The notes under the pieces were generated by a model. The model was given only the letters and a program-made list of their open reading frames with translations, made no database searches and was not told where the DNA came from. Below, in pieces: positions 41,502 to 64,000 of a DNA stretch of 64,000 nt (positions are counted from its first letter, which is position 1; the number at the start of each line of letters is the position of its first letter). Origin of the DNA: a virus (taxonomy: Duplodnaviria; Caudoviricetes); the IMG/VR virus record IMGVR_UViG_3300028626_000002, positions 1-64,000 of that record. One strand, given 5' to 3'. The position numbers and the translations under genes are program-made.

Positions 41502-42551
41502 CTATGCGGGGAGGGCGTCCTGGGGGGCGGTCAGGTCGAAGGCGATCTGGACGGCCGAGTCCTTCATCTCGGACCCGGCACCGAACCACGCGCTGTAGAG
41601 GCGCGAGTCGGGGGAGATGGTCTTGCCACGAACGTGGTCCACGTACTGCGTGACGGTGTTCACGAAGGCGTACGCGGTGCCGGGCACGCCGGGCATCTGC
41701 TGGATGGTCGGGGACGTGCTGTAGATGTCCCACAGCGCGGTGCGGATGTTCTGGGCCCTGGCGGGGTTGGCGGGCGCCGGCGGGTTCGGGACCAGCAGCT
41801 CGAAGGCCTCCTTGATGAGGTTCTCACCCATGGGCAGGCCGGCCAGCGCGCGGAAGATTTCTTCCTGCTGCTGGAACTGCTTCTCGACCAGGCCCAGCAC
41901 CCGCTGCGCCTCCTCGAGCTTGGTGCTCGGGTCGCCGGTGTGCCGGATGCTGATGAACTTGCCGCTCCCCTTCGCCAGGTCGATGGCGCCCATCAGGGTG
42001 TTCGCGCAGACGATGCGCATGGTGGACGCGCCGGCGCCGAACTGCATCGTGCCGTTGTGGCTGTTGAACGCGAAGAAGTTCAGGTCGATGAGGTCTCCGG
42101 GGATGACTTCGATGGTCTTGGGGTAGCGTCCCATGATCCACACGACGGTGTTGCCGCGGAGGCTGCCCGCGGTGTGGATGCGGATGCCACCCTCCTTCAC
42201 GAGGTTCGCGAGGAACGCGGCCATTTCGCGCTGCTGGATGGGCCGGTACTTCGAGCCGACGACGCCGAGGGTGCGGAACACCCCGTTCTTCTCGTACTCC
42301 CCGTCGTCCCCGCGTCTCGGGGTACGCACGGTGGCCTGGTGGCCGGTCACGGGGAGCGCGGTGCCCTTGTCGCGGCCCTTGGGACAGGCGGCGACGAGGG
42401 GCCACAGCTCGACCGGCCAGTCGAGGCCGGCGACCTCCAGGCACTCCTCCGGTGGCAGAGGGTCGACGATGGGCGTGCCCATTCCGTGCCAGGGAACCCC
42501 CTCGTTCTTCACGTAAAAGCTTGTATCGGTGGTCTCGATTCCGTGAGCCAT
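41502..42551 (-). CDS. DUF932 / phage-plasmid-like protein
   Basis: MAH.....PWHGMG, AGLDWPV, LGVVGSKYRPIQ, TAGSLRG, NSHNG, RIVCANTL, RHTG, GTAY..VN.VT.Y.DH. Confidence 0.92.
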   Translation of the reverse strand: MAHGIETTDTSFYVKNEGVPWHGMGTPIVDPLPPEECLEVAGLDWPVELWPLVAACPKGRDKGTALPVTGHQATVRTPRRGDDGEYEKNGVFRTLGVVGSKYRPIQQREMAAFLANLVKEGGIRIHTAGSLRGNTVVWIMGRYPKTIEVIPGDLIDLNFFAFNSHNGTMQFGAGASTMRIVCANTLMGAIDLAKGSGKFISIRHTGDPSTKLEEAQRVLGLVEKQFQQQEEIFRALAGLPMGENLIKEAFELLVPNPPAPANPARAQNIRTALWDIYSTSPTIQQMPGVPGTAYAFVNTVTQYVDHVRGKTISPDSRLYSAWFGAGSEMKDSAVQIAFDLTAPQDALPA

Positions 42552-42590
42552 TTTCGCTATACTCCCTTTTGACTTGCATGGCGGTTGTTG

Positions 42591-43232
42591 ATGAACGTCA
42601 AGACCTGCAAGATGTGCAGGGCGGAGAAACCACTGTCCGCGTTCAACAAGGATCCGACGCGGCGCGATGGGCACCATCCGTACTGCACTCAGTGTAAGAG
42701 AATCACGTTCAAGGACAAGCCTCGCCCCGGTAGGAAGCGAAAGCCGAAGGGCACCGCGCGCCGGGAGGCCTTACGGAGCGCCAGGGCCTCCCGGACGGAG
42801 AAGGTTTGCTCCGGGTGCGGGGAACTGAAGCCGCTCGCTTTGTACCACAAGCAGGCGTCTGTGCTGGACGGCCACGCCTCTCGGTGTAAGGCATGCGTCC
42901 ACGAGAGCACGGTTGCCAGGTACGACCCCGCCCGCAGCCGCGTGTACTACCTTGGGCGCCGGGCCGAGCTGCTACGGAAGACGAAAGACAGCAGGGACTC
43001 CAGGAAGCGCGCCTTCATCTTGAGGCTGGGGGGTTGTTGCGCCGATTGCGGCACGTCCCCCGACAACCCGTGGCCGCTGGCCAGCTTTTGCTTTCACCAC
43101 CCGGAGTCGGACAAGAAGGAGGCTGGTGTAGCGTCCATCATGGCCAGGCGGGGGGAAGAACGGGCGTGGGCAGAGGCGCAGAGGTGCGTCGTGCTCTGCA
43201 ATAACTGCCACGCGCGACGGCATGCCACCTAA
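42591..43232 (+). CDS. Free-standing HNH endonuclease with two Zn-ribbon DNA-binding repeats
   Basis: KTCKMC..EKPL..F / KVCSGC..LKPL..Y; LGG.C.DCG, FHH, C.VLCNNCH; antisense to flanking genes. Confidence 0.9.
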   Translation: MNVKTCKMCRAEKPLSAFNKDPTRRDGHHPYCTQCKRITFKDKPRPGRKRKPKGTARREALRSARASRTEKVCSGCGELKPLALYHKQASVLDGHASRCKACVHESTVARYDPARSRVYYLGRRAELLRKTKDSRDSRKRAFILRLGGCCADCGTSPDNPWPLASFCFHHPESDKKEAGVASIMARRGEERAWAEAQRCVVLCNNCHARRHAT

Positions 43233-55494: not shown

Positions 55495-56042
55495 GCAAGT
55501 CCGCGGAGATCGTGAACCTGGACGAGGGTCTCGACCTGTACGACGACACCCGCGTCTGGAAGGACCTGACGGACCTGCTCTGGAGGCCCGCACCACCCCC
55601 GCTCTACCCCGGGCAGACCGAGGACGACGCGGGTGACCCCGAACTGCCCTCCAACCTCGACCTCATGTGGGTCGACGACCTGCGGAAGGTCCAGAAGGAC
55701 TTCGGCCGCTGGCTGGGGTACCGCAGCGACCAGAAGACGCTCCTGATGACCACGTCGGTCAAGCTGAAGGCCCAGCTGGACTTCGTCGAGAACCTCCTCT
55801 ACACGCAGGTCTACGTCAAGGGCTCCCAGAAGGCACGGGAGGCTGCACTCCGCACCGACCGCGCCTACGTGGAGGTGCACAACAACTACATCGACACGAA
55901 GGCTCTGCTGGCGGCCATCAACAACCGCATCGACACCCTGACCCGGCATCTGGACATCGTGTCGAGGCAGATCACGGTGGTGATGGGGAACCCGGAGAAC
56001 GACCCCATTCCGAGGAGCACCCACCATGGCGAAGAGGACTGA
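55491..56042 (+). CDS. UvsY-like recombination mediator (putative)
   Basis: Helical protein with D..Y and ..SRQIT end-motif, downstream of recombinase and exonuclease. Confidence 0.5.
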   Translation: MSKSAEIVNLDEGLDLYDDTRVWKDLTDLLWRPAPPPLYPGQTEDDAGDPELPSNLDLMWVDDLRKVQKDFGRWLGYRSDQKTLLMTTSVKLKAQLDFVENLLYTQVYVKGSQKAREAALRTDRAYVEVHNNYIDTKALLAAINNRIDTLTRHLDIVSRQITVVMGNPENDPIPRSTHHGEED

Positions 56043-56583
56043 CCAGGTATCACCGGACCCCGACTCCTCGGGCATCACGGTCCGGCTGGACGTGGAGTCG
56101 CCCCCGGAGCCGAAGAAGAAGCGCGCCAAGGCCAAGAAGGAGCCCAAGCGCGTCGTCCTGTCGTCCGCCGAGGAGGCGGACCTCAAGTACGAACAGCTGC
56201 TCCAGGTGATGAACCACTCGGAGCTGGTCGAGGCCTGTCGCCTCGCCGGCCTCAAGGCCGACAGGACCATGGAGCAGTCCGTCCTTCGGGAGGCGCTGCG
56301 GACGGGAGTGCTCGTCTACGACAAGCCGTCGTCCGTCTGGAGGATGCGTGACCAGCTGCAGGAGTATCTGGACGCGCACCCGAAGGTCCCGGTCAACCCG
56401 AAGGTCTGCCCGAAGGATTGCTCGCAACACCCCGACCTCATCGTGATGCAGTGTCACCGCAGCATGGTGACCGTCATCGCGTCGTCGAGGTCTACGGACG
56501 TGCGGAAGAACGCGTTGGAACGCTCCAGTCACATGGGGCCGAAGAAGGGCCGCGGGCCCAAGGAAGAAGGAGAAGACAGATGA
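56026..56583 (+). CDS. Hypothetical protein
   Basis: 185 aa, GAGGAG RBS, C...C..H.......C cluster. Confidence 0.7.
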   Translation: MAKRTDQVSPDPDSSGITVRLDVESPPEPKKKRAKAKKEPKRVVLSSAEEADLKYEQLLQVMNHSELVEACRLAGLKADRTMEQSVLREALRTGVLVYDKPSSVWRMRDQLQEYLDAHPKVPVNPKVCPKDCSQHPDLIVMQCHRSMVTVIASSRSTDVRKNALERSSHMGPKKGRGPKEEGEDR

Positions 56584-57434
56584 CCAAGAACGAGCTGAAC
56601 GAGTGCAAGCAGGGCCAGCTGGCGGACCTGGCGGTTGCGTGCGGGTGGAAGCCCCTGCGGCCGGGGCTGCCCCCGGTGATGGACGCGCGCATGGCCAACA
56701 AGGACGCGCTCATCACGTTCCTGCTGAAGGTGCAGGACCAGGGCTTCGAGATCACCGTCGGCGACGACGGGAAGCTGCAGGCCCAGCCGTCCTCGGGGGA
56801 CGAGGACAACGAGGCCACCGTCGTCGAGGGCGACGAGGGCGGCGAGGCCGTGACCGACGAGGAGGGCGTCCCCTCCGGCGAGGCCCTGGCCGAGCCCGAG
56901 GACGAGCCGGAGCCCGAGCCGGCCCCGGCCAAGGCGCCCAGGAAGACCCGGTCGGCCAGCGCGCCGCAGACCGCGGACGCCCAGCTGGACGACATCATCG
57001 CCAGGCTGCGCGAGGCGCACGGGGACATCGCCAAGACCTACGGCATGGTCTCCAGGCTCCTCACGATGGTCGAGGAGCAGAACGCCGTCATCACCAAGCA
57101 GGCCGCCATCATCACTCGCACCTTCAACGCCGTGGGCTGGATGTTCACGACGGAGATGGGCATGGGCCTGCTGAAGCCCGAGTTCTTCGACAACCCCTAC
57201 TTCGACCCGAAGTCCCCCGACGAGTACGCGGTGGGGGACGGCGACATCGAGCCGGAGCCCGAGCCGGAGCCCGCGTCGGCGAAGAGCGCGAGCAAGGGCC
57301 CTTCCGTGGCCCCCTCGACCGCGCCGAAGGCGGCCAAGGCCCCGCAGCTGCCGGGGGCGGTCTCGGGGGCGAGCACCGGGGCGCAGAGCGGCGGGGCGGC
57401 CAAGCGCCCGCAGCTCCCCGGGGCCAAGAAGTAG
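56580..57434 (+). CDS. Hypothetical acidic low-complexity protein
   Basis: Start MTKNELNE (ATGA overlap); EPEPEPA twice and PQLPGA twice. Confidence 0.75.
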   Translation: MTKNELNECKQGQLADLAVACGWKPLRPGLPPVMDARMANKDALITFLLKVQDQGFEITVGDDGKLQAQPSSGDEDNEATVVEGDEGGEAVTDEEGVPSGEALAEPEDEPEPEPAPAKAPRKTRSASAPQTADAQLDDIIARLREAHGDIAKTYGMVSRLLTMVEEQNAVITKQAAIITRTFNAVGWMFTTEMGMGLLKPEFFDNPYFDPKSPDEYAVGDGDIEPEPEPEPASAKSASKGPSVAPSTAPKAAKAPQLPGAVSGASTGAQSGGAAKRPQLPGAKK

Positions 57435-57562
57435 TCCGGCTGGACCCGGAGCGCAGCCACCCGACTGCTCTCCTGCTGTCCTTGGGCGTGGCCAGCAAGG
57501 CGGCCAACTCGTCCAAGGATACGGTCAAGGCCGAGCTGTTCCTGATCGCGGAACCTGACTGA

Positions 57563-57591
57563 CCCTCCCCCGGGCCCGCTCCGGGGGAGGG
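57563..57591 (+). terminator. GC-rich 11-bp hairpin
   Basis: CCCTCCCCCGG-gcccgct-CCGGGGGAGGG; no U-tract. Confidence 0.45.
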
Positions 57592-57604
57592 CACAGGAGG
57601 CGTC

Positions 57605-57976
57605 ATGCACCGAAGCCTGGGCACCATCCTACCGGCCCTGCTGGACCTCTGGTTCTGGGAGCCGCCCGGGTGGACATCTGTCGTCGCGGACGACATGTTC
57701 GTGGTGTACGACGGGGACAACAACGTCGCGGCCTGTGCGCCGCTCGCGAATGCCCACGCCGTACGCCGGCTGAAATCCCTGATGGACACCGTCAACCTCA
57801 TCAACGACCACGTCGAGAAGTTCCGCAACCCATACGACGCGGACAGCTGGTTCAACACCACGCTGGAGCGTCTGCGGGAGGCGGAGGGCGAGGCGTCCGA
57901 GCTGCGTACGGAGAACGCCCGTCTTCACACCCTTCTGGCGAAGTACGGGCACCACGACCACGACCCGCCCTTCTGA
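57605..57976 (+). CDS. Hypothetical protein
   Basis: AGGAGG RBS, 123 aa. Confidence 0.7.
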   Translation: MHRSLGTILPALLDLWFWEPPGWTSVVADDMFVVYDGDNNVAACAPLANAHAVRRLKSLMDTVNLINDHVEKFRNPYDADSWFNTTLERLREAEGEASELRTENARLHTLLAKYGHHDHDPPF

Positions 57977-57998
57977 GCGGGGCGCAACGGAGGTACTC

Positions 57999-58919
57999 AT
58001 GGCCCCTCCCCTGATCCTGTATCACCGCGTCGATGACGACGGAGTGGCATCGGCCGTCATCGCCATGCGGAGGTACCCCGACGCGGTGCCCTACGGCATC
58101 AACTACGGTGACCCGATCCCCTGGGACCTCATGACCGAGGGCAGGCTGGTCATCATCGTCGATTGGTCCGCCCTGGACCAGCAGGCTCCCGTCGGCAAGC
58201 GGTGCGAGCCGATGCGCAGGATTCAGGTCCGCGGCCCGCTGGTCTGGATCGACCACCACGTCACCGCCATCGAGGATGCCGAGGCCGAGGGCTTCGACTG
58301 TGAGGGTCTGCGGCAGGTCGGCCTGGCCGGCTGTGAGCTGACGTGGCGGTTCTTCTTCGGCGCCCTGCCCATGCCCCCGGTCGTTCGGCACATCGGTCGG
58401 TGGGACGTCTGGGACCACGCCGACGAGGAGACCACCCTGGTCCACTTCGGCCTGATGAGCCAGGACGCCCGGGTGGACAGCCCAATCTGGTGGAAGCTCC
58501 TGCCGGCCACCCCGGAGGAGCGCTCCACCCCCATGTACCGGGCGGACTACATCTCCCTGCTGCACGACGGTGCGATCCTGCGTCGGTACAAGACGGTGCA
58601 GGATGCCCGCACGGCCAAGGCAGGGTACTTCACCACGACGCTGGACGGGCACACCGTGCTGGCGATCAACGCCGGCGGGAACTCCGATCTCCTGGCCAGC
58701 GTCTGGGACCCGGCGAAGTGGGAGTTCGTGCTCCTCTTCTCTCTGAACCACCGGGGGTGGAAGGTCTCGATCTTCCACTCCGCCGGCGGGGCCGACGTTC
58801 ATCTGGGGGAGATCGCGAAGCGCTACGGTGGCGGTGGCCACCGCGCCGCGGCCGGGTTCACCGTTCTGGCCGGGCAGCCCCTCCCGTTCAAGACCCCCGC
58901 TGACGCGGATTTCTGGTGA
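57999..58919 (+). CDS. DHH/DHHA1 phosphoesterase (nanoRNase-like)
   Basis: YH..D.DG, IVD.S, WIDHH, D.W, GGGGH..AAGF. Confidence 0.93.
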   Translation: MAPPLILYHRVDDDGVASAVIAMRRYPDAVPYGINYGDPIPWDLMTEGRLVIIVDWSALDQQAPVGKRCEPMRRIQVRGPLVWIDHHVTAIEDAEAEGFDCEGLRQVGLAGCELTWRFFFGALPMPPVVRHIGRWDVWDHADEETTLVHFGLMSQDARVDSPIWWKLLPATPEERSTPMYRADYISLLHDGAILRRYKTVQDARTAKAGYFTTTLDGHTVLAINAGGNSDLLASVWDPAKWEFVLLFSLNHRGWKVSIFHSAGGADVHLGEIAKRYGGGGHRAAAGFTVLAGQPLPFKTPADADFW

Positions 58920-58921
58920 CC

Positions 58922-58964
58922 GGCCGTCCGCCGGCTCAGGCACTTCCTGGGCCGGCGGACGGCC
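58922..58964 (+). terminator. 19-bp GC-rich hairpin
   Basis: GGCCGTCCGCCGGCTCAGG-cactt-CCTGGGCCGGCGGACGGCC directly after the DHH stop. Confidence 0.55.
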
Positions 58965-58992
58965 ACATGGCTTTCCTCTAGTCGGAGCTGAA

Positions 58993-59436
58993 GTGGATGT
59001 CTACTTCGTAGCTGCCTTCACGGCCTTGCACGCTCTCGGTGCTACGCCGGAGGAGGAGCGAACTCTCAAGTGGCTGGTGGACGTCGAGAGCCACTGGCAC
59101 CCAGAGGCCGTGAACGGCCCCTGCTGCGGCCCGTGGCAGACGAACTACCACATCGCGTCCCGTCTGCTGGGCGAGCCCGTCACCTGCGAAGACCTGCAGA
59201 CGAAACCGGACGTGGCGGCGCGCGCGGCCCTGGCGTTCCTGCAGAAGATGCGTGAACCGAGGGTGTGTGGACCCAACTGGTACTGCGGATGGAGGCACGG
59301 GCCCTACTCGGACAGCTGCAAGCACAAGTGCAAGCAGCCGAAAGAGAAGCCCAAGAGGAAGAAGCATGGGAAGGCGAAGACAAAAGCGGCTGTACGACCG
59401 CTTCACCGAGTTCCTGGGCTACCCGTACGCCCGTGA
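58993..59436 (+). CDS. Lytic transglycosylase (SLT)-like protein
   Basis: L..VES.W.P.A.....G.WQ motif, N/D...AA..L; basic C-terminus; start uncertain. Confidence 0.65.
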   Translation: MDVYFVAAFTALHALGATPEEERTLKWLVDVESHWHPEAVNGPCCGPWQTNYHIASRLLGEPVTCEDLQTKPDVAARAALAFLQKMREPRVCGPNWYCGWRHGPYSDSCKHKCKQPKEKPKRKKHGKAKTKAAVRPLHRVPGLPVRP

Positions 59437-60220
59437 CCGCAATCGCCGGCCCTTCTACGGGCTGTGCGGCGCGCGCGACCACACCTACGTCACCCGCGAG
59501 GACGGGTTCATCTACATCGTGTACCACGGCACGAGCATCGTCTGCCTGTCACCGAACGGGGACATCACGCTGTCCACCGGGGGGTGGCGCTCGTTCACCA
59601 CGAAGGCCAGGATCAACGAGGTTCTCCCGCGCGGCTGGTCGCTCTACAGTGACCTGGGGGTCTGGTACCTGTCGGACCCCTGGAAGCGGAAGCACGTCTT
59701 CGCCGACGGCATGACCATCAAGTACCGCGGAAAGAAGGTCATCGGCGCCGGGCAGCCCATCCGGCCCAAGGACCTGAAGAACCTCAAGGCGAAGATCCGC
59801 AACTACGCCGTCGAGTACGTGCGGCGTCTCCGGGGGTGGCAGCTGATGGAGCCCAGTGACACCGAGTGCCCGCACTGCCACGAGCGGCTTCACCGGGACC
59901 TCCACGACGCCCCGCCCACCTCTCTCCAGTGCCTGGCCCACCACGGAAACACGAAGGGGCTGGGTAGGCCGAAGGGGGACGTCCTGGGGGACATCACCCA
60001 CATCCAGCAGCACATCTACGAGGCGGTGTGCCCAAGCTCGATGATCATCAACGCGGCTCTCGAGCTCGGCGCCGGCCCCGTCGCTCGCACCTTGATCGTG
60101 GAGCGGCTGAGCTCGTCTGTCATCAACACGCTGAGCAACTACACCGAGGACGTGGCGGCGATCCAGTTGGAGCGCACGTTGACCCGCTACCTGCGGCGCA
60201 GGTACGGGATGGAGGCGTAG
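59366..60220 (+). CDS. Conserved-looking hypothetical phage protein
   Basis: YHGT.IV...ITLSTGGW.S.TTK.RIN motif; CPHC. Confidence 0.75.
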   Translation: MGRRRQKRLYDRFTEFLGYPYARDRNRRPFYGLCGARDHTYVTREDGFIYIVYHGTSIVCLSPNGDITLSTGGWRSFTTKARINEVLPRGWSLYSDLGVWYLSDPWKRKHVFADGMTIKYRGKKVIGAGQPIRPKDLKNLKAKIRNYAVEYVRRLRGWQLMEPSDTECPHCHERLHRDLHDAPPTSLQCLAHHGNTKGLGRPKGDVLGDITHIQQHIYEAVCPSSMIINAALELGAGPVARTLIVERLSSSVINTLSNYTEDVAAIQLERTLTRYLRRRYGMEA

Positions 60221-60466
60221 ATGCCGACCGATTCTCCTCTCATCGCTCTCGCGGTACCGGAGGTCGTTCTGGGGACCGTTCTGGAGGCTGCCCGGGAACA
60301 CGCCCGCTACCTGCAGCTGCGGGCCCACGTCTCTGACGATGCCCCCCACGGCGCAAGGACTGGCGTCGAGCCCCTGCTGGGGCACCGCAACCGCGAGGCG
60401 GCCTGCTCGGAGGCGCAGGAGATCATGCAGGCCGCCAGGCACATCGCTTCCCTCGTCAGGCGGTAA
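60221..60466 (+). CDS. Hypothetical protein
   Basis: GGAGG RBS, 81 aa. Confidence 0.55.
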   Translation: MPTDSPLIALAVPEVVLGTVLEAAREHARYLQLRAHVSDDAPHGARTGVEPLLGHRNREAACSEAQEIMQAARHIASLVRR

Positions 60467-60488
60467 TATCGCGAGTTCCTGGGTATAA
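60457..60488 (+). promoter_or_regulatory. Repeated promoter-like motif CAGGCGGTAA-N6-GAGTTCCTGGGTATAA
   Basis: Second copy of 44599..44630; lies upstream of the RAMP-like gene. Confidence 0.7.
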
Positions 60489-60541
60489 CGTGAATGCTTA
60501 GGGGCACTTTCGTCCCCTACCCTTTCAGGAGGAGCACACCC

Positions 60542-61210
60542 ATGGCACCGCGCAAGAAGAACCCCGTGGACCTCAAGCCCGAGGGCGCACTCGAAGCGAA
60601 GGGCGGGACCGGCGTCACCAACGCCGCGGCCTTCGCCCCGTACCGGGTGGAGATGGAGCTGACCGGCACCGCCGACATGCTCATGCACCGGTACGACGTC
60701 GAGGAGGTCGAGAGCAAGAGCGCCGGCACGAGCAAGGGCGGCAAGTCCAAGAAGACCGACAACGTCGAGTCCTACCTGTACCGCGGCAAGGACGGGATGC
60801 TCCGGCTGCCCGGCGAGGTCGTCAAGGCGTGCATCGTGGACGGCGCCAAGTTCCTGCAGGACCCGCGCTCGCCCCGCAAGGCGGCGAAGGACCTCTTCAA
60901 GGCGGGCATCCTGGCCGCGGCCCCCACGGAGTTCCAGAACCACGAGGGGAAGCAGGTCCGGGAGTGGGACTACCTCGACAAGCGCCGGGCCGTCGTCCAG
61001 CGCAACGCCGTGCTGCGGGTCCGCCCGGCGTTCATGGCCGGCTGGCGGGTCAAGGCCACGTTCGACGTCATCGCGTCGGATCTCATCACCGAGGACTTCT
61101 TCCGCAAGGCCGTCGACAACGCCGGCCGGTTCTGCGGCATGTGCGACTTCAGGCCGGATTTCGGCAGGTTCCGCGTCGACAGCTGGCGCGTGACCCCCTT
61201 GACCGTGTGA
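60542..61210 (+). CDS. Stand-alone RAMP/Cas7-like protein
   Basis: Beta1 VEMELTGTADMLMH; LPGEVVKACI (cf. RAMP IPGSSLKG); thumb-like hairpin DKRRAVVQRNAVLRVRP; terminal Gly loop AGRFCGMCDFRPDFGRF; AGGAGG RBS. Confidence 0.6.
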   Translation: MAPRKKNPVDLKPEGALEAKGGTGVTNAAAFAPYRVEMELTGTADMLMHRYDVEEVESKSAGTSKGGKSKKTDNVESYLYRGKDGMLRLPGEVVKACIVDGAKFLQDPRSPRKAAKDLFKAGILAAAPTEFQNHEGKQVREWDYLDKRRAVVQRNAVLRVRPAFMAGWRVKATFDVIASDLITEDFFRKAVDNAGRFCGMCDFRPDFGRFRVDSWRVTPLTV

Positions 61211-61251
61211 CACGGTCGGACTACCATCCACCCTTCGCCTCTCCAAGGAGG

Positions 61252-61371
61252 ATGACCGTGGCGAACAAGAACCTGTTCAAGTCCCTGTCCTCGAAGCGCC
61301 CCCCGACCACCGTCAAGAACGACGCTGGCGGGCGGGCCTACCCGCGGGGCCCGAAGCTGGCAACCGGTTGA
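61252..61371 (+). pseudogene. Truncated duplicate of the Ro60/TROVE N-terminus
   Basis: (M)ANKNLFKSLSSKRPPTTVKNDAGGRAYPRGPKLATG* is 25/35 identical to the TROVE start; AAGGAGG RBS. Confidence 0.85.
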
Positions 61372-61396
61372 CACCTGTGCGGCAACAGGTTACCCT
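61368..61396 (+). promoter_or_regulatory. Sigma70-like promoter TTGACA-N17-TACCCT with palindromic spacer
   Basis: -35 overlaps the remnant's TGA; ACCTGT-N6-ACAGGT at 61373..61390. Confidence 0.65.
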
Positions 61397-61414
61397 CTGG
61401 GCGGAGGTGACAAG

Positions 61415-61903
61415 ATGGCCACACCAGAGGAACTTGCGTACTGCGCAGGGGTAATTGACTCGGATGGGTGCATCCGAGTGGGTCGCGGGGTCAAGCGTGA
61501 CAAGCGAGCGGGCAAACACAGCGCTTACGCTGACTACCACCCCGCTGTCCACGTCGGCCAGGTGGAACCACAAGCGGTTGACCTGCTGAAGCGGGTATTC
61601 GGAGGAAGCATCTACCTGCGCAAGCGCGACAAGAAGGCCCACCGCACCTTGATGGTGTGGCGAGTGAGGGACAACCTTGCGGCGGAATGCGCCAGGCAGT
61701 TGCTGCCCTACCTGCGCATCAAGAAGGCGCAGGCACTGAACTGTATTGCCCTGCAGGACTACCGCCACGAGTACGGCAGGCAGTCAAGGGCGGTGAAGGG
61801 GAGGGCCGGTACTACATTCCGCACAGCCGACGTGATACAGAGGCTCGAGGAGTTCTACGCGGAGTCGAGGAGGCTCAACGCAGGGAGCACGGAGGAACCA
61901 TAA
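61415..61903 (+). mobile_element. Free-standing single-motif LAGLIDADG homing endonuclease
   Basis: LAYCAGVIDSDGCI, FGGSI, LLPYLRIKKAQA; atypical codon usage; GGAGGT RBS. Confidence 0.92.
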
Positions 61904-63678
61904 TGGCCAACAAGACGCTGTTCAAGTCCACGAGTAGCAAGCGTCCCCCCACGGACACGACCAACGAGGCCGGGGGCCGGGCATACAACAGGGACTCTCG
62001 CCTCGCGCTCGCGCAGCTCAGTGCAACCGGCTGCCTCGGCGGCACGTTCTACACGAGCCCCGAACAGGAGCTGGCGACCATCCTGGACCTCTGTGGCCAG
62101 AACTCCCCCGAGTTCGTGGCCAAGGCCGCCGTCTACGCCCGCAAGCGCGGGTTCATGAAGGACGCCCCCGCCCTGATGGTGGCGCACCTGGCGTCGCTGC
62201 AGACCGCGGAGGGCCGGAACGCCTTCACGCAGGCGTTCCCGCTCGTCATGGACAACGCGAAGATGGTCCGGAACTTCGTCCAGATCATCCGTTCCGGGCA
62301 GGCCGGCCGCAAGTCGTTCGGTTCCCGGCCCAAGAAGCTGATCCAGGCGTGGTTCAACAACATCCCGGACCACGCGCTGTTCAACTCCAGCATCGGGCAG
62401 GACCCGTCGCTGGGGGACATCATCAACCTGGTCCACCCGCTGCCCAAGACGGACTCCCGCCGGGCCTTGTACGGCTACCTGAAGGGCACCGAGGGCATCA
62501 CCCGGGAGGCGTTCGACCGGCTGCCGCAGGCCGAGCGGTTCAACCGGCATGGCGACCCGCGCTTCTACTTCTCCGACGACCTGCCGCCCCTGGTGCAGGC
62601 CTACGAGCAGCTGAAGCGCGGCGCGTGGGACGGCGAGCAGCTGCCGCGGGTCAACTTCCAGATGCTGACCTCGCTGAAGCTGTCGAAGGACCAGTGGGCC
62701 GAGGTGGCCATGACGATGTCGTGGTACGCCCTGCGGATGAACCTGAACACCCTGCTGCGGCATGGCGTGTTCGACATCCCGGGGATGACGCCGAAGATCG
62801 TCGCCCGGCTGACGGACCCGGAGGCCATCCGCAAGGCCAAGGCCTTCCCGTACCAGCTGCTGACCGCGTACCTCTACGCGGACGACAAGCTGCCGCGCGC
62901 GGTCAAGAACGCCCTGCAGGACGCCATGGAGGTGGCCTGCGAGAACGTCCCGCTCATCGGGAGCGGCCGCATCCTCATCTGCCCGGACGTGTCCGGGTCG
63001 ATGCGCGAGCCCATCACCGGCAAGCGGGACCAGGTGTCGAAGATCAACCGCATCCACGTGGCGGCGCTCATCGCCGCGGCGCTGATGCGGAAGAACCCGG
63101 ACGCGGACATCCTGCCGTTCGCCAACGACGTGCGCGGGGACATCCAGTTCAACCCCCGCGACAGCATCATGACGAACGCCCAGCGCGTCTACGACGCGGC
63201 CGCCGGCGGAACCCGCATGGCCGCGCCGCTGCTCCTGGCCAACCGGGAGCAGCGGAAGTACGAGGCGGTGGTCTTCGTCTCGGACAACGAGTCCTGGATG
63301 GACAGCGAGGGTCGGCACTACGGCCCCTGCGGGAAGCAGCTGTGGTCGAACCCCCTGTTCCAGCACCCGACCACCAAGGACTGGGGGGCGACGCAGACCC
63401 TGGAGGAGTGGAACACCTTCTCCCGGCGCAACCACGGCGCCAAGCTGGTGTGCGTCGACCTGACGCCGGACACCACCGTGCAGTGCATCGACCGGGCGGA
63501 CATCCTCAACGTCGGCGGCTTCTCCGACGCGGTGTTCGACGTCATCGACTCGTTCGCGAAGGGCGACCTGACCCCGGAGCACTGGGTGGGCGAGATCGAG
63601 CGCATCAACCTGCACCAGTTCGACCCGACCCCACACGAGGTGGGCCAGGTCGAGGAATCGGCCGAGCCGCTGGCCTAA
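61903..63678 (+). CDS. Ro60/Rsr TROVE-domain RNA-binding protein with vWA domain
   Basis: NEAGG.AY, LAQ...TG....TFY, MKD.PA, LRMNLNT..RHGVF, FPYQL, DVSGSM (MIDAS), SDNESW, GGFSDAVF. Confidence 0.95.
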   Translation: MANKTLFKSTSSKRPPTDTTNEAGGRAYNRDSRLALAQLSATGCLGGTFYTSPEQELATILDLCGQNSPEFVAKAAVYARKRGFMKDAPALMVAHLASLQTAEGRNAFTQAFPLVMDNAKMVRNFVQIIRSGQAGRKSFGSRPKKLIQAWFNNIPDHALFNSSIGQDPSLGDIINLVHPLPKTDSRRALYGYLKGTEGITREAFDRLPQAERFNRHGDPRFYFSDDLPPLVQAYEQLKRGAWDGEQLPRVNFQMLTSLKLSKDQWAEVAMTMSWYALRMNLNTLLRHGVFDIPGMTPKIVARLTDPEAIRKAKAFPYQLLTAYLYADDKLPRAVKNALQDAMEVACENVPLIGSGRILICPDVSGSMREPITGKRDQVSKINRIHVAALIAAALMRKNPDADILPFANDVRGDIQFNPRDSIMTNAQRVYDAAAGGTRMAAPLLLANREQRKYEAVVFVSDNESWMDSEGRHYGPCGKQLWSNPLFQHPTTKDWGATQTLEEWNTFSRRNHGAKLVCVDLTPDTTVQCIDRADILNVGGFSDAVFDVIDSFAKGDLTPEHWVGEIERINLHQFDPTPHEVGQVEESAEPLA

Positions 63679-63697
63679 CCCACCAGCAGCTCAGTCA

Positions 63698-63738
63698 CCC
63701 CGGCCCCGTGGCGCGTGCTCCCGCTCACGGGGCCGGGG
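63698..63738 (+). terminator. 13-bp GC-rich hairpin after TROVE
   Basis: CCCCGGCCCCGTG-N15-CACGGGGCCGGGG. Confidence 0.5.
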
Positions 63739-63774
63739 AGTCCCCTCTCCCCATCCCTTCACCATGAGGACACT

Positions 63775-64000
63775 GTGAGCAGCGACTCGAAGTCCACCTT
63801 CGTTCAGGACCTCCGTACGAAGTTCGGCACGGAGCCGTTCACCGACAGCAAGGACCCCAAGAACGGCAGCATCCTGTACCTCCGGGTCGGCAAGGGCGCC
63901 GACACCTGGATCGTGACCGTCAACTACCAGCTCTACGCCCCCCGGAAGCCGCAGGGCAGCCACCTCGTCACGTACGGGGTGTCCGTCCGGAACCCCCGCG
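63775..64000 (+). CDS. Hypothetical protein (runs off window)
   Basis: GAGGA RBS, GTG start, frame open to the window end (MSSDSKSTFVQDL...YGVSVRNPR). Confidence 0.65.
   Translation, partial: MSSDSKSTFVQDLRTKFGTEPFTDSKDPKNGSILYLRVGKGADTWIVTVNYQLYAPRKPQGSHLVTYGVSVRNPR

What the first reader, a model, noticed from the sequence alone, without database searches (positions are those of the whole stretch)
61252..62035. LAGLIDADG cassette that invades Ro60 and supplies a recoded replacement N-terminus
Seen: the order is [RBS + ~37 codons of TROVE N-terminus + stop] - promoter - LAGLIDADG ORF - [RBS + complete TROVE, TAATG-coupled]. The two N-termini are 25/35 aa identical but differ at many synonymous sites (tcc tcg vs agt agc; gcc vs gca). 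The functional copy's first ~40 codons use atypical codons (agt, cgt, agg, tct, gca) like the endonuclease, unlike the rest of TROVE. No intein signature (separate ORF with own RBS and stop) and no room for a group I intron core. Known: free-standing homing endonucleases in fungal mitochondria restore target genes by carrying duplicated gene ends. Inference: a splicing-independent intragenic homing element that repairs its host gene with a cleavage-resistant 5' end and takes over its transcription.
Basis: partly seen in the sequence, partly recalled or inferred. Interest (0 to 1): 0.8.

Follow-up and report, generated by a model that had tools for sequence, protein, structure and literature searches.

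The report
Homing endonuclease cassette replacing Ro60 start
A selfish DNA-cutting gene sits inside the start of a large phage's Ro60 RNA-binding gene and keeps that gene whole without splicing, because it arrived with a foreign copy of the first 43 codons and left the original start stranded upstream; related endonuclease genes show the same layout in at least 13 other phage contigs.

Summary
The order is: native promoter-like site and RBS, a 37-codon Ro60/TROVE start ending in TGA (61258-61371), a 43-nt leader, a 162-aa LAGLIDADG ORF (61415-61903), then the complete TROVE gene (61903-63678) joined by TAATG.

New evidence:
- Two uninterrupted relatives of the TROVE protein (87% and 78% identical) carry the remnant's type of N-terminus (32/35 identical for the closer one), not the working copy's.
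- The working copy's first 40 residues are 68% identical to the closer relative, against 90% for the rest. They also hold most of the gene's A/T-ending codons.
- The endonuclease folds like I-CreI/I-MsoI and keeps their conserved active-site positions. No intron or intein signal was found.
- 92 other TROVE loci have no such endonuclease, and none of the 82 tested has such a duplicate.
- Among 77 phage contigs with related endonucleases, at least 13 show the same layout, mostly in DNA methylase genes cut at the SPPY motif.

Best reading (0.8): the endonuclease gene and a replacement 5' end entered as one DNA segment by break repair at the Thr-Gly|Cys codons. Cleavage, mobility as a unit and promoter use are inferred, not shown.

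The kind is known from fungal mitochondria. This scan has also noted it on other DNA (several archaea and one phage dNMP kinase gene). I found no paper describing it for phage gene starts.

The parts
61199..61227 (+). Native promoter-like site (TTGACC-17-TACCAT) upstream of the stranded TROVE start
   Evidence: The only site in 60400-64000 that passes the promoter scan. One of two TTGACN-N17-TANNNT matches in the 125-kb record.
61245..61251 (+). Native ribosome-binding site AAGGAGG of the original TROVE start
   Evidence: Read from the sequence. It lies 6 nt before GTG 61258.
61258..61371 (+). Stranded native 5' end of TROVE: 37 codons plus TGA, with 6 codons missing near its end
   Evidence: 32/35 identical to the N-terminus of P0092, an uninterrupted TROVE protein 87% identical overall. 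GC3 is 0.92, typical of the host genome.
61367..61370 (.). Left junction, where homology between the remnant and TROVE ends (ACCGG|TTGACA)
   Evidence: Codon alignment. This point lies 2 nt to the right of the centre of the corresponding near-palindrome in the working copy.
61368..61414 (+). Cassette leader: TTGACA (61368-61373), 17 nt holding the inverted repeat ACCTGT/ACAGGT, TACCCT (61391-61396), GGAGG (61403-61407)
   Evidence: Sequence and pattern count. It fails the promoter tool's threshold, so promoter function is inferred.
61415..61903 (+). Single-motif LAGLIDADG homing endonuclease gene, 162 aa
   Evidence: phrog_5046 at 1.4e-17. AlphaFold2 model with pLDDT 90.2. Foldseek top matches are I-CvuI, I-MsoI and I-CreI, TM 0.65-0.71. 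GC3 is 0.765 and the CAI-like index 0.50, below the 5th percentile (0.53) of the genome's genes.
61903..62031 (+). Foreign replacement 5' end of TROVE (codons 1-43), start overlapping the endonuclease stop (TAATG)
   Evidence: 27/40 identical to P0092 here against 494/551 downstream (Fisher p 2.7e-4). Lowest GC3 of the 13 windows in the gene. 6/43 A/T-ending codons against 10/548 in the rest.
62023..62034 (.). Near-palindrome GCAACC|GGCTGC at the end of the duplicated segment; presumed core of the endonuclease target
   Evidence: 5 of 6 pairs are complementary; 0.65% of positions in TROVE reach this. Its role as target is inferred.
62032..63678 (+). Native-type body of the Ro60/TROVE gene, including the vWA domain
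   Evidence: Pfam TROVE 33.9 bits and vWA_Ro60 58.2 bits, both above cut-off. 90% identical to P0092, and 97% over residues ~60-110. GC3 is 0.98.

Best explanation
An I-CreI-like single-motif LAGLIDADG homing endonuclease gene lies inside what was once a continuous Ro60/TROVE gene of a large high-GC phage.

Proposed steps (all inferred):
1. The enzyme, presumably as a homodimer, cuts endonuclease-free TROVE alleles at the near-palindromic DNA that encodes Ala-Thr-Gly-Cys.
2. The break is repaired from a donor that carries, as one compact segment, a short leader with promoter-like and ribosome-binding signals, the endonuclease gene, and the donor's own first 43 TROVE codons.
3. On the right, repair resolves in the TROVE body at or just after the cut. 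On the left, the segment is joined to the cut end of the recipient gene.
4. The recipient's own start codon, RBS and first 37 codons are thereby stranded as a dead stub.

Consequences: the gene stays whole without RNA or protein splicing. TROVE is now translated from a new start coupled to the endonuclease stop (TAATG). The bases to the left of the cut differ in the new copy, which would protect it from re-cutting.

Shown here: the anatomy, the native identity of the stub, the foreign nature of the working 5' end, the fold of the enzyme, and the recurrence of the layout in the enzyme's family.

Inferred: the cut site, the repair route, the immunity of the new copy, and promoter use.
For: 1. 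Anatomy and the size of the duplication.
2. Uninterrupted relatives P0092 (87%) and P0093 (78%) begin MTVANKNLFKSQSSKRPPTTVKNAAGGRAYERGPKLALAQMAATGCLGG and a like sequence. The stub matches P0092 at 32/35. The working copy matches at 27/40 before ATGCLGG and 494/551 after it (Fisher p 2.7e-4).
3. The composition changes at the same codon. A/T-ending codons are 6/43 against 10/548 (p 4.8e-4), the last at codons 40-41. GC3 is 0.86 in the first window against 0.95-1.0 in the other twelve. The endonuclease gene itself has GC3 0.765.
4. The enzyme has the motif LAYCAGVIDSDG, and D17, Q49 and K103 are invariant or nearly so in the family alignment. By my reading of the alignment these correspond to I-CreI D20, Q47 and K98. 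Model pLDDT is 90.2, and the top Foldseek matches are I-CvuI, I-MsoI and I-CreI.
5. No Rfam family matches at E <= 1 in 56000-64000. The endonuclease is a separate ORF in another frame with its own GGAGG.
6. Stub homology ends 2 nt to the right of the centre of a 12-bp near-palindrome. A LAGLIDADG top-strand cut would leave the end there (the cut geometry is from my own knowledge of the family).
7. Specificity: none of 92 other TROVE loci carries the endonuclease family, and none of 82 tested has an upstream N-terminal duplicate.
8. Recurrence: 13 of 77 phage contigs with family members show [stub][endonuclease, sense or antisense][second copy][gene body]. Most are in PF01555 DNA methylases, with the stub ending at or up to about 27 nt before the SPPY motif; one is in a protein with a PP-loop-like motif. 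The endonuclease ORF's start (sense) or stop (antisense) lies within about 0-50 nt of the junction. In 14 of 14 loci the second copy's GC3 is less host-like than the stub's.
Against: - No DNA of an endonuclease-free relative could be fetched, so both junctions are mapped at protein level only.
- The one close endonuclease relative (P0001, 93% identical, on a 2986-bp contig) has no recognisable close TROVE fragment of 30-324 aa in the protein collection. That contig may therefore hold the gene in another context, or the gene may lie at the contig's end.
- The 6-codon gap inside the stub is not predicted by a simple cut-and-join.
- The first 43 TROVE codons are not compositional outliers against the whole genome.
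- The endonuclease scores below Pfam's LAGLIDADG_1 cut-off (14.3 against 23.1 bits).
- Cleavage, target, immunity and promoter activity are all untested.
Confidence: 0.8

Rival explanations
1. One-off by-product of ordinary intronless homing. In the donor, a free-standing endonuclease gene sat just upstream of TROVE. It cut the recipient's TROVE near codon 43. The right end was repaired by homology, and the left end, lacking homology upstream, was joined illegitimately. The stub is an accident, and the unit is not a self-contained mobile cassette.
For: One-sided homing with illegitimate junctions at microhomologies is documented in phage T4 (Parker et al. 1999, as reviewed in PMC2988022). The same genome holds a plain free-standing LAGLIDADG gene directly upstream of another gene with no duplication (72223-72885), and Streptomyces phage Gilson gp9 overlaps the thyX start in the same way. 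Stub ends are ragged in several family loci and in the window, where 6-9 codons are missing.
Against: In the family loci the left junction lies within about 0-50 nt of the endonuclease ORF's own start or stop, with little or no donor filler. Random illegitimate joins should capture variable lengths of upstream donor DNA. The layout recurs in at least 13 loci and three host gene families. This rival differs from the best explanation only in whether the unit goes on to home as a cassette.
Confidence: 0.12
2. A local tandem duplication of the TROVE 5' end arose within this phage lineage. The endonuclease gene landed later in the spacer, and the two copies have since diverged in place.
For: The two copies are in the same frame. 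Within every family locus the two copies are closer to each other (53-83% identical) than to copies in other loci.
Against: The downstream copy is the divergent one, yet it is the copy under selection. The dead upstream copy is 32/35 identical to a relative's N-terminus. Synonymous sites between the copies are near saturation (14 of 26 same-residue codons differ), while the adjoining gene body is 97% identical in protein to P0092 over residues ~60-110. The downstream copy carries endonuclease-like codon usage.
Confidence: 0.04
3. The interruption is removed by splicing. Either a group I or II intron carries the endonuclease ORF, or an intein does, so the stub is a real first exon or extein.
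For: LAGLIDADG genes are most often intron- or intein-borne. The stub and TROVE share a reading frame.
Against: No Rfam family matches at E <= 1 in 56000-64000. Only 43 nt of the interval lie outside the ORF. The endonuclease is in another frame with its own RBS, start and stop, and the stub ends in TGA. A complete second N-terminus directly joined to the body makes splicing unnecessary.
Confidence: 0.02

Closest known systems
Mobile endonuclease ORFs of fungal mitochondria that travel with a replacement gene end. The Allomyces macrogynus atp6 hybrid gene and LAGLIDADG insertions in rps3 are from my own knowledge. [quoted passage not shown]
   Same: The endonuclease gene lies inside a protein-coding gene without an intron or intein. 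A foreign copy of the gene end keeps the gene whole. The native end is stranded as a pseudogene.
   Different: Here the host is a phage and the replaced end is the 5' end, with new RBS, start codon and promoter-like signals. In the family the endonuclease occurs in either orientation. The targets are Ro60/TROVE and DNA methylases rather than respiratory genes.
Free-standing homing endonucleases of T4-type phages (Seg and Mob proteins, 'intronless homing'; PMC2988022)
   Same: A separate endonuclease ORF with its own expression signals in a phage. Spread is by break repair with co-conversion of flanking host sequence. The carrier genome is immune through sequence differences at the target.
   Different: [quoted passage not shown] Here a LAGLIDADG enzyme sits inside the former coding region, the inferred cut is at the insertion point, and a gene stub is left behind.
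Endonuclease insertions that split phage genes: Aeh1 nrdA/mobE, and T4 gene 39/60 with mobA (PMC2988022). That mobA and the 50-nt bypass element of gene 60 form one mobile cassette is from my own knowledge (Bonocora et al. 2011).
   Same: An endonuclease gene inserted at a functionally critical, conserved part of a phage gene. The element brings extra sequence that lets the host gene keep working.
   Different: Those cases leave two polypeptides that reassemble, or need ribosomal bypass. Here a single full-length protein is encoded because the 5' end is duplicated.
LAGLIDADG 'domain' reported in cluster F actinophage DNA methylases (Taj gp79; PMC9957025)
   Same: A LAGLIDADG endonuclease sequence within actinophage methylase genes, outside any intein, with signs of horizontal transfer.
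   Different: That paper describes it as an in-frame domain and reports no N-terminal duplication. In the distant relative I examined (DotProduct gp64) the endonuclease match is out of frame with the annotated ORF, and I found no duplicate.
I-CreI, I-MsoI and I-CvuI (homodimeric single-motif LAGLIDADG enzymes of algal chloroplast group I introns)
   Same: Size, fold, the LAGLIDADG helix with its acidic residue, and the conserved K and Q positions.
   Different: About 20% sequence identity. Those enzymes are intron-encoded; this one is not.

Membership tests
LAGLIDADG homing endonuclease, single-motif (I-CreI type) | LAGLIDADG helix ending in a conserved acidic residue, plus conserved Gln and Lys of the active-site pocket | tested here: met
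   The motif is LAYCAGVIDSDG. D15 and K103 are invariant, and D17 and Q49 are at least 90% conserved, among 49 family members. HMMER aligns the motif and LLPYLRIKKAQA to the matching I-MsoI and I-CvuI segments. Correspondence to I-CreI D20, Q47 and K98 is my reading of that alignment.
LAGLIDADG homing endonuclease, single-motif (I-CreI type) | alpha-beta-beta-alpha-beta-beta-alpha core fold | tested here: met
   The AlphaFold2 model (pLDDT 90.2) has H4-17, E18-29, E36-49, H52-62, E65-69, E79-85, H86-99. Foldseek top matches are I-CvuI, I-MsoI and I-CreI, probability 1.00, TM 0.65-0.71.
LAGLIDADG homing endonuclease, single-motif (I-CreI type) | Score above the Pfam LAGLIDADG_1 gathering cut-off | tested here: not met
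   14.3 bits against a cut-off of 23.1, E = 0.078. The protein is a divergent member recognised by fold and by phrog_5046 (1.4e-17).
LAGLIDADG homing endonuclease, single-motif (I-CreI type) | Site-specific cleavage of the endonuclease-free allele, leaving 4-nt 3' overhangs | not testable with these tools
   Only indirect evidence: stub homology ends 2 nt to the right of the centre of the near-palindrome GCAACC|GGCTGC.
Ro60 / TROVE RNA-binding protein | TROVE domain followed by the Ro60-type vWA domain, at full length | tested here: met
   PF05731 at 33.9 bits (cut-off 23) and PF25045 at 58.2 bits (cut-off 27.7). phrog_850 at 3.2e-35 over residues 6-559. Aligns end to end with more than 100 homologues.
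Ro60 / TROVE RNA-binding protein | Partner Y RNA encoded nearby | not tested
   No Rfam match within 56000-64000. Earlier notes of this scan place a Y-RNA array just beyond the window's end; I did not check them.
Endonuclease ORF carrying a replacement gene terminus (fungal mitochondrial type) | Two copies of one gene end flank the endonuclease gene: one contiguous with the gene, the other stranded | tested here: met
   Score 120, against at most 95 in reversed-flank controls and at most 40 in 82 endonuclease-free TROVE loci.
Endonuclease ORF carrying a replacement gene terminus (fungal mitochondrial type) | The stranded copy is the native type and the working copy is foreign | tested here: met
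   Stub against P0092 is 32/35. Working copy against P0092 is 27/40 before the site and 494/551 after it. The composition switches at codons 41-43.
Endonuclease ORF carrying a replacement gene terminus (fungal mitochondrial type) | Uninterrupted, endonuclease-free alleles exist in relatives | tested here: met
   P0092 (600 aa) and P0093 (597 aa) are single ORFs with a native-type N-terminus joined to the body.
Endonuclease ORF carrying a replacement gene terminus (fungal mitochondrial type) | Endonuclease plus replacement end moves as one unit between genetic backgrounds | tested here: inconclusive
No close TROVE fragment accompanies it in the protein collection. Family loci are too diverged to test this (endonucleases at most 68% identical).
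Group I intron or intein | Ribozyme core, or in-frame Hint splicing domain, around the endonuclease | tested here: not met
   No Rfam match at E <= 1. Only 43 nt of the interval are non-ORF. The endonuclease is in a different frame from TROVE, with its own start and stop. Pfam finds nothing but a weak LAGLIDADG_1 match.
Free-standing phage homing endonuclease (T4 Seg/Mob type) | Lies between intact genes and leaves no fragment of its target gene | tested here: not met
   A 37-codon TROVE stub lies upstream of it. By contrast, the paralogue at 72223-72885 of the same record meets this feature.

The most novel reading that the evidence does not exclude
This LAGLIDADG clade may be a widespread class of self-contained phage homing cassettes that invade the 5' part of genes at conserved catalytic or binding motifs, always carrying a replacement gene start. 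In some members, 4-8-nt inserts that begin with a stop codon sit exactly at the target (for example UGG-UAG-UGG and UGG-UAA-CG-UGG in two methylase loci). These could be immunity inserts that the ribosome must hop or shift across, a miniature version of the T4 mobA/gene 60 arrangement.
Probability: 0.25. Interest if true: 0.8.

Novelty: new variant of a known kind. Interest (0 to 1): 0.62.

Why it matters
- It shows a third way, besides introns and inteins, for a homing endonuclease to live inside a phage gene without destroying it, and it is not a one-off. The same layout recurs across a sizeable endonuclease family in phage DNA methylases, one PP-loop-like gene, and here Ro60.
- It bears on annotation. 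Stubs fused to endonucleases are called as chimeric 'methylase' or 'hypothetical' proteins, and the true gene start is foreign.
- It bears on phage mosaicism. Gene starts, ribosome sites and possibly promoters are swapped together with the selfish gene.
- It suggests a search method. Each cassette marks the enzyme's natural target at the end of the duplicated segment, so targets of uncharacterised meganucleases can be read from genomes.

Tried and rejected
- DNA search of 60900-62600 against 50,697 phage records found no match.
- Single-protein endonuclease scan of IMG/VR found no relative. The alignment-based scan then found 80 loci.
- TROVE scans of IMG/VR and JGI metagenomes returned only 37-48% relatives. 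The 87% relative's contig was not returned, and the single metagenome scan is now spent.
- Relatives cannot be drawn for a virus record.
- A search for short TROVE fragments, meant to find what accompanies P0001, found nothing above 54% identity.
- Synteny: the upstream gene (phrog_4652) and the endonuclease are absent from 12 IMG/VR TROVE loci.
- Group I intron and intein readings are rejected (frames).
- 'Selected recoding' is rejected as unproven. The shortage of identical codons is significant only if both copies are assumed to share host codon usage (P = 0.0024), and not when endonuclease-like usage is allowed for the second copy (P = 0.18).
- The genome-wide codon-usage outlier test for the first 43 codons was not significant.
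- A universal replacement N-terminus travelling with the endonuclease is rejected. Within each locus the two copies are each other's closest relatives.
- Several high-scoring flank matches (L155, L172, L159, L109, L122) were low-complexity artefacts and were dropped.
- One Pfam call was wasted on wrong coordinates.
- Cultivated-phage relatives showed no duplication: Gilson gp9 upstream of thyX, and DotProduct gp64.
Full report
**The setting.** The window is the first 64 kb of a 125-kb IMG/VR virus record with 66.9% G+C, estimated 68% complete. The same TROVE protein is on record on a 184.8-kb contig.

**Anatomy.**
- A promoter-like site TTGACC-17-TACCAT lies at 61199-61227. It is the only site in 60400-64000 that passes the scan.
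- It is followed by AAGGAGG (61245-61251) and a 37-codon ORF from GTG 61258 to TGA 61369-61371. This ORF reads VANKNLFKSLSSKRPPTTVKNDAGGRAYPRGPKLATG.
- A 43-nt spacer follows, holding TTGACA-17-TACCCT and GGAGG.
- Then comes a 162-aa ORF (61415-61903).
- The 591-aa TROVE gene (61903-63678) starts with an ATG that overlaps the preceding TAA (TAATG). It begins MANKTLFKSTSSKRPPTDTTNEAGGRAYNRDSRLALAQLSATGCLGG.
- The stub and TROVE share a frame; the middle ORF is in another frame.

**The duplication.** The two N-termini are 24/35 identical over residues 1-35. Over 38 aligned codons, 12 are identical, 14 differ synonymously and 12 differ in residue; 73/114 nt are identical. The stub lacks six codons just before its last codons, and homology ends at 61367-61370.

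**Is it more than chance?** The local alignment score between the flanks of the endonuclease gene is 120. In 156 controls with one flank reversed, the median was 38 and the maximum 95; those high scores were low-complexity matches. In 82 endonuclease-free TROVE loci tested the same way, the best upstream match to the gene's own N-terminus scored 40, with a median of 28.

**The middle ORF.**
- Pfam's LAGLIDADG_1 model scores below its cut-off (14.3 bits). phrog_5046 matches at 1.4e-17.
- HMMER aligns the protein to I-MsoI and I-CvuI through both the LAGLIDADG helix and the LLPYLRIKKAQA segment.
- 90 homologues were found, and an alignment of 49 has Y9, A11, G12, D15, G18, P98, L100 and K103 invariant, with D17 and Q49 nearly so.
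- The AlphaFold2 model has pLDDT 90.2 and the expected alpha-beta-beta-alpha-beta-beta-alpha core. Its best Foldseek matches are the homodimeric enzymes I-CvuI, I-MsoI and I-CreI (TM 0.65-0.71, probability 1.00).
- It is thus an intact-looking single-motif LAGLIDADG endonuclease. Activity and dimerisation are inferred from the family.

**Which copy is native?** The decisive evidence comes from the two closest TROVE proteins in the large protein collection: P0092 (87% identical, 600 aa) and P0093 (78%, 597 aa).
- Both are single uninterrupted ORFs. Both begin with the stub's type of N-terminus; P0092 reads MTVANKNLFKSQSSKRPPTTVKNAAGGRAYERGPKLALAQMAATGCLGG.
- The stub matches P0092 at 32 of 35 positions.
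- The window's working copy matches P0092 at only 27 of 40 before ATGCLGG but at 494 of 551 after it (Fisher p 2.7e-4). Over residues ~60-110, just after the site, identity is 97%.
- The stub is therefore the lineage's own start. The working first 40-43 codons came from a more distant allele, and the switch lies at the Thr-Gly|Cys codons where the stub ends.

**Composition agrees.**
- The endonuclease gene has GC3 0.765 and a CAI-like index of 0.50. The genome's genes average 0.90 and 0.74, with a 5th percentile of 0.53 for the index.
- The TROVE body has GC3 0.98. Its first 43 codons have 0.86, the lowest of 13 windows in the gene.
- A/T-ending codons number 6/43 in the first 43 codons against 10/548 in the rest (p 4.8e-4), the last at codons 40 and 41.
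- A caveat: against all 43-codon windows of the genome the first 43 codons are unremarkable.

**Splicing readings.** No Rfam family matches at E <= 1 in 56000-64000. Only 43 nt of the interval lie outside the ORF. The endonuclease has its own RBS, start and stop in a different frame, and the stub ends in a stop codon. A complete second N-terminus joined to the body makes splicing unnecessary. I reject the group I intron and intein readings.

**The likely target.**
- The duplicated segment ends in the working copy at GCAACC|GGCTGC (62023-62034). This is a 12-bp near-palindrome with 5 of 6 pairs complementary; only 0.65% of positions in TROVE reach that.
- Stub homology ends at ...AACCGG, 2 nt to the right of the palindrome's centre.
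- A LAGLIDADG enzyme cutting with a 4-nt 3' overhang across CCGG would leave the top strand ending exactly there. The cut geometry is from my own knowledge of the family.
- In the working copy the bases just left of this core encode QLS instead of the native QMA. That change could make the copy immune.
- All of this is inference.

**Expression signals.** Only two TTGACN-N17-TANNNT motifs occur in the 125-kb record, where 0.7 are expected. One lies upstream of the stub and one starts exactly at the left junction. Both have a 6-bp inverted repeat in the spacer. The cassette may thus bring a promoter of the same type as the native one. No terminator is predicted between the native site and TROVE, so 'adds a promoter' is a safer statement than 'takes over transcription'.

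**Specificity.** An HMM of the endonuclease family finds no member in 92 other TROVE loci totalling 715 kb. The second LAGLIDADG gene of the same phage (72223-72885) is an ordinary free-standing gene upstream of another gene, with no duplication.

**Generality.** A scan of IMG/VR with the family alignment gave 80 loci, and 77 were testable.
- Nine scored above every control with compact, stop-free alignments next to the endonuclease: L120, L157, L106, L103, L096, L097, L098, L137 and L135.
- Four more scored above the 99th percentile of the controls with the same geometry: L175, L126, L099 and L117.
- On the host gene's strand the order is always stub, endonuclease, second copy, gene body. The endonuclease is in the sense orientation in 5 loci and antisense in 8.
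- Twelve loci are in a DNA methylase gene (PF01555 confirmed for eight of them; L126, L135, L137 and L117 were not scanned and L103's short ORF gave no match). There the stub ends at, or up to about 27 nt before, the catalytic SPPY motif. One host (L157) is a protein with a PP-loop-like SFGGGVQS motif.
- The units are very compact. In antisense loci the endonuclease's stop codon abuts the junction. In sense loci the stub is fused in frame to the endonuclease (L103, L099) or ends within about 50 nt of its start.
- Several database proteins of the family likewise carry a methylase start (...GDCREVL...VTSPP) fused to the LAGLIDADG motif.
- In all 14 loci, including the window, the second copy's GC3 is further from the host's bias than the stub's.
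- Within each locus the two copies are closer to each other (53-83% identical) than to copies in other loci. The replacement start therefore comes from a related allele, not from a universal module.
- Identical codons at same-residue positions are fewer than expected under shared host usage (96 against 118.6, P = 0.0024). They are not fewer once endonuclease-like usage is allowed for the second copy (103.4, P = 0.18). 'Recoded' therefore describes the data, but selection for recoding is not shown.

**An unexplained feature of the family, not of the window.** In six methylase loci, 4-8 extra nucleotides that begin with a stop codon separate the second copy from the WGLRDYG body:
- L120: TAT TGA T TGG
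- L098: TAT TGA C TGG
- L135: TAC TGA AT TGG
- L097: TAT TGA AT GGG
- L175: TGG TAG TGG
- L137: TGG TAA CG TGG

L126 has a longer, unidentified insertion at the same point. Some of these look like tandem copies of the 4-5 nt that straddle the presumed cut. Two (L175, L137) have identical Trp codons on both sides of the stop, which would allow tRNA hopping. They may be misrepair scars, end-joined junctions, or immunity inserts that need recoding. I could not decide among these.

**How it most likely works.** The enzyme cuts endonuclease-free TROVE alleles at the Ala-Thr-Gly-Cys codons. The break is repaired from a carrier genome, so that leader, endonuclease gene and the carrier's first 43 codons are copied in. 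The right side resolves at or just after the cut. The left side joins the cut end of the recipient, stranding its start. One-sided repair with illegitimate junctions is documented for T4 (PMC2988022, citing Parker et al. 1999). Once formed, the stub itself supplies left-hand homology for further homing into related naive alleles. The compactness and recurrence of the units favour an evolved cassette over repeated accidents, but mobility as a unit is not shown. The only close endonuclease relative (P0001, 93%) lies on a contig I could not read, and no close TROVE fragment is on record with it.

**Comparison with what is known.**
- The kind is known from fungal mitochondria: an endonuclease ORF that carries a replacement gene terminus and leaves the native one as a pseudogene. 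PMC7487136 reports free HEGs with partial atp6 and cox1 duplicates and with the atp9 N-terminus. The Allomyces atp6 and rps3 cases are from my own knowledge.
- Phage endonucleases are known as free-standing genes between genes, as intron or intein passengers, or as gene-splitters (PMC2988022).
- A LAGLIDADG 'domain' in actinophage methylases has been reported without mention of a duplicated start (PMC9957025).
- Four literature searches found no description of 5'-end-replacing endonuclease cassettes in phages. That is absence of evidence in an incomplete library.
- Earlier notes of this scan describe similar cassettes in several archaea and in one phage dNMP kinase gene. The scan has therefore found this kind before on other DNA.
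- Other notes place a Y-RNA array and a tmRNA just beyond the window's end. That fits a working Ro60, but I did not check it.

**Verdict.** Novelty is a new variant of a known kind. Interest is moderate to high, because the arrangement turns out to be a recurrent strategy of a phage endonuclease family and marks each enzyme's natural target.

Noticed in passing
L120, L098, L135, L097, L175, L137 (IMG/VR loci; junction between second methylase N-terminal copy and WGLRDYG body): 4-8 extra nucleotides that begin with a stop codon sit exactly at the Tyr/Trp codons of the SPPY-W motif, the presumed cut site. Most shift the reading frame. Two loci have UGG on both sides of the stop (UGG UAG UGG; UGG UAA CG UGG). 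They could be misrepair scars, end-joined junctions, or immunity inserts that need ribosome hopping.
   Followed up: partly
L126 (IMG/VR locus), after the second TSPPY copy: The second methylase N-terminal copy ends in TAA and is followed by a longer unidentified insertion rather than the WGLRDYG body. This may be a second element at the same site.
   Followed up: no
G000:C1:72223-72885 (beyond the window's end): A second LAGLIDADG gene in the same phage (30% identical, 220-codon open frame with a C-terminal extension, GC3 0.75). It is free-standing, lies just upstream of a 557-codon ORF, and has no flanking duplication.
   Followed up: yes
window 61199-61227 and 61368-61396: These are the only two TTGACN-N17-TANNNT motifs in the 125-kb record. 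Each has a 6-bp inverted repeat in the spacer (CCGTGT/ACACGG and ACCTGT/ACAGGT), which could be an operator shared by the native and imported promoters.
   Followed up: partly
L176 (Mycobacterium phage DotProduct, NC_042336.1 41819-43810, gp64): The annotated 663-aa C5 DNA methyltransferase ORF reads through an embedded LAGLIDADG-like gene that lies in another frame (match at 42204-42641), between the ENV motif and the later motifs. The annotated translation there is low-complexity, and no N-terminal duplicate was found. It may be an intron, a split gene, or a mis-annotation.
   Followed up: partly
window 60494-61210: The gene just upstream of the TROVE locus matches phrog_4652 (6.5e-19, unknown function) and is absent from 12 other phage TROVE loci. 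Another first-stage note calls it RAMP/Cas7-like; I did not test that.
   Followed up: no
window 58911-58971: A short hairpin-forming stretch gives weak, sub-threshold Rfam matches on both strands (P35, mir-4529). This is probably a terminator-like palindrome.
   Followed up: no
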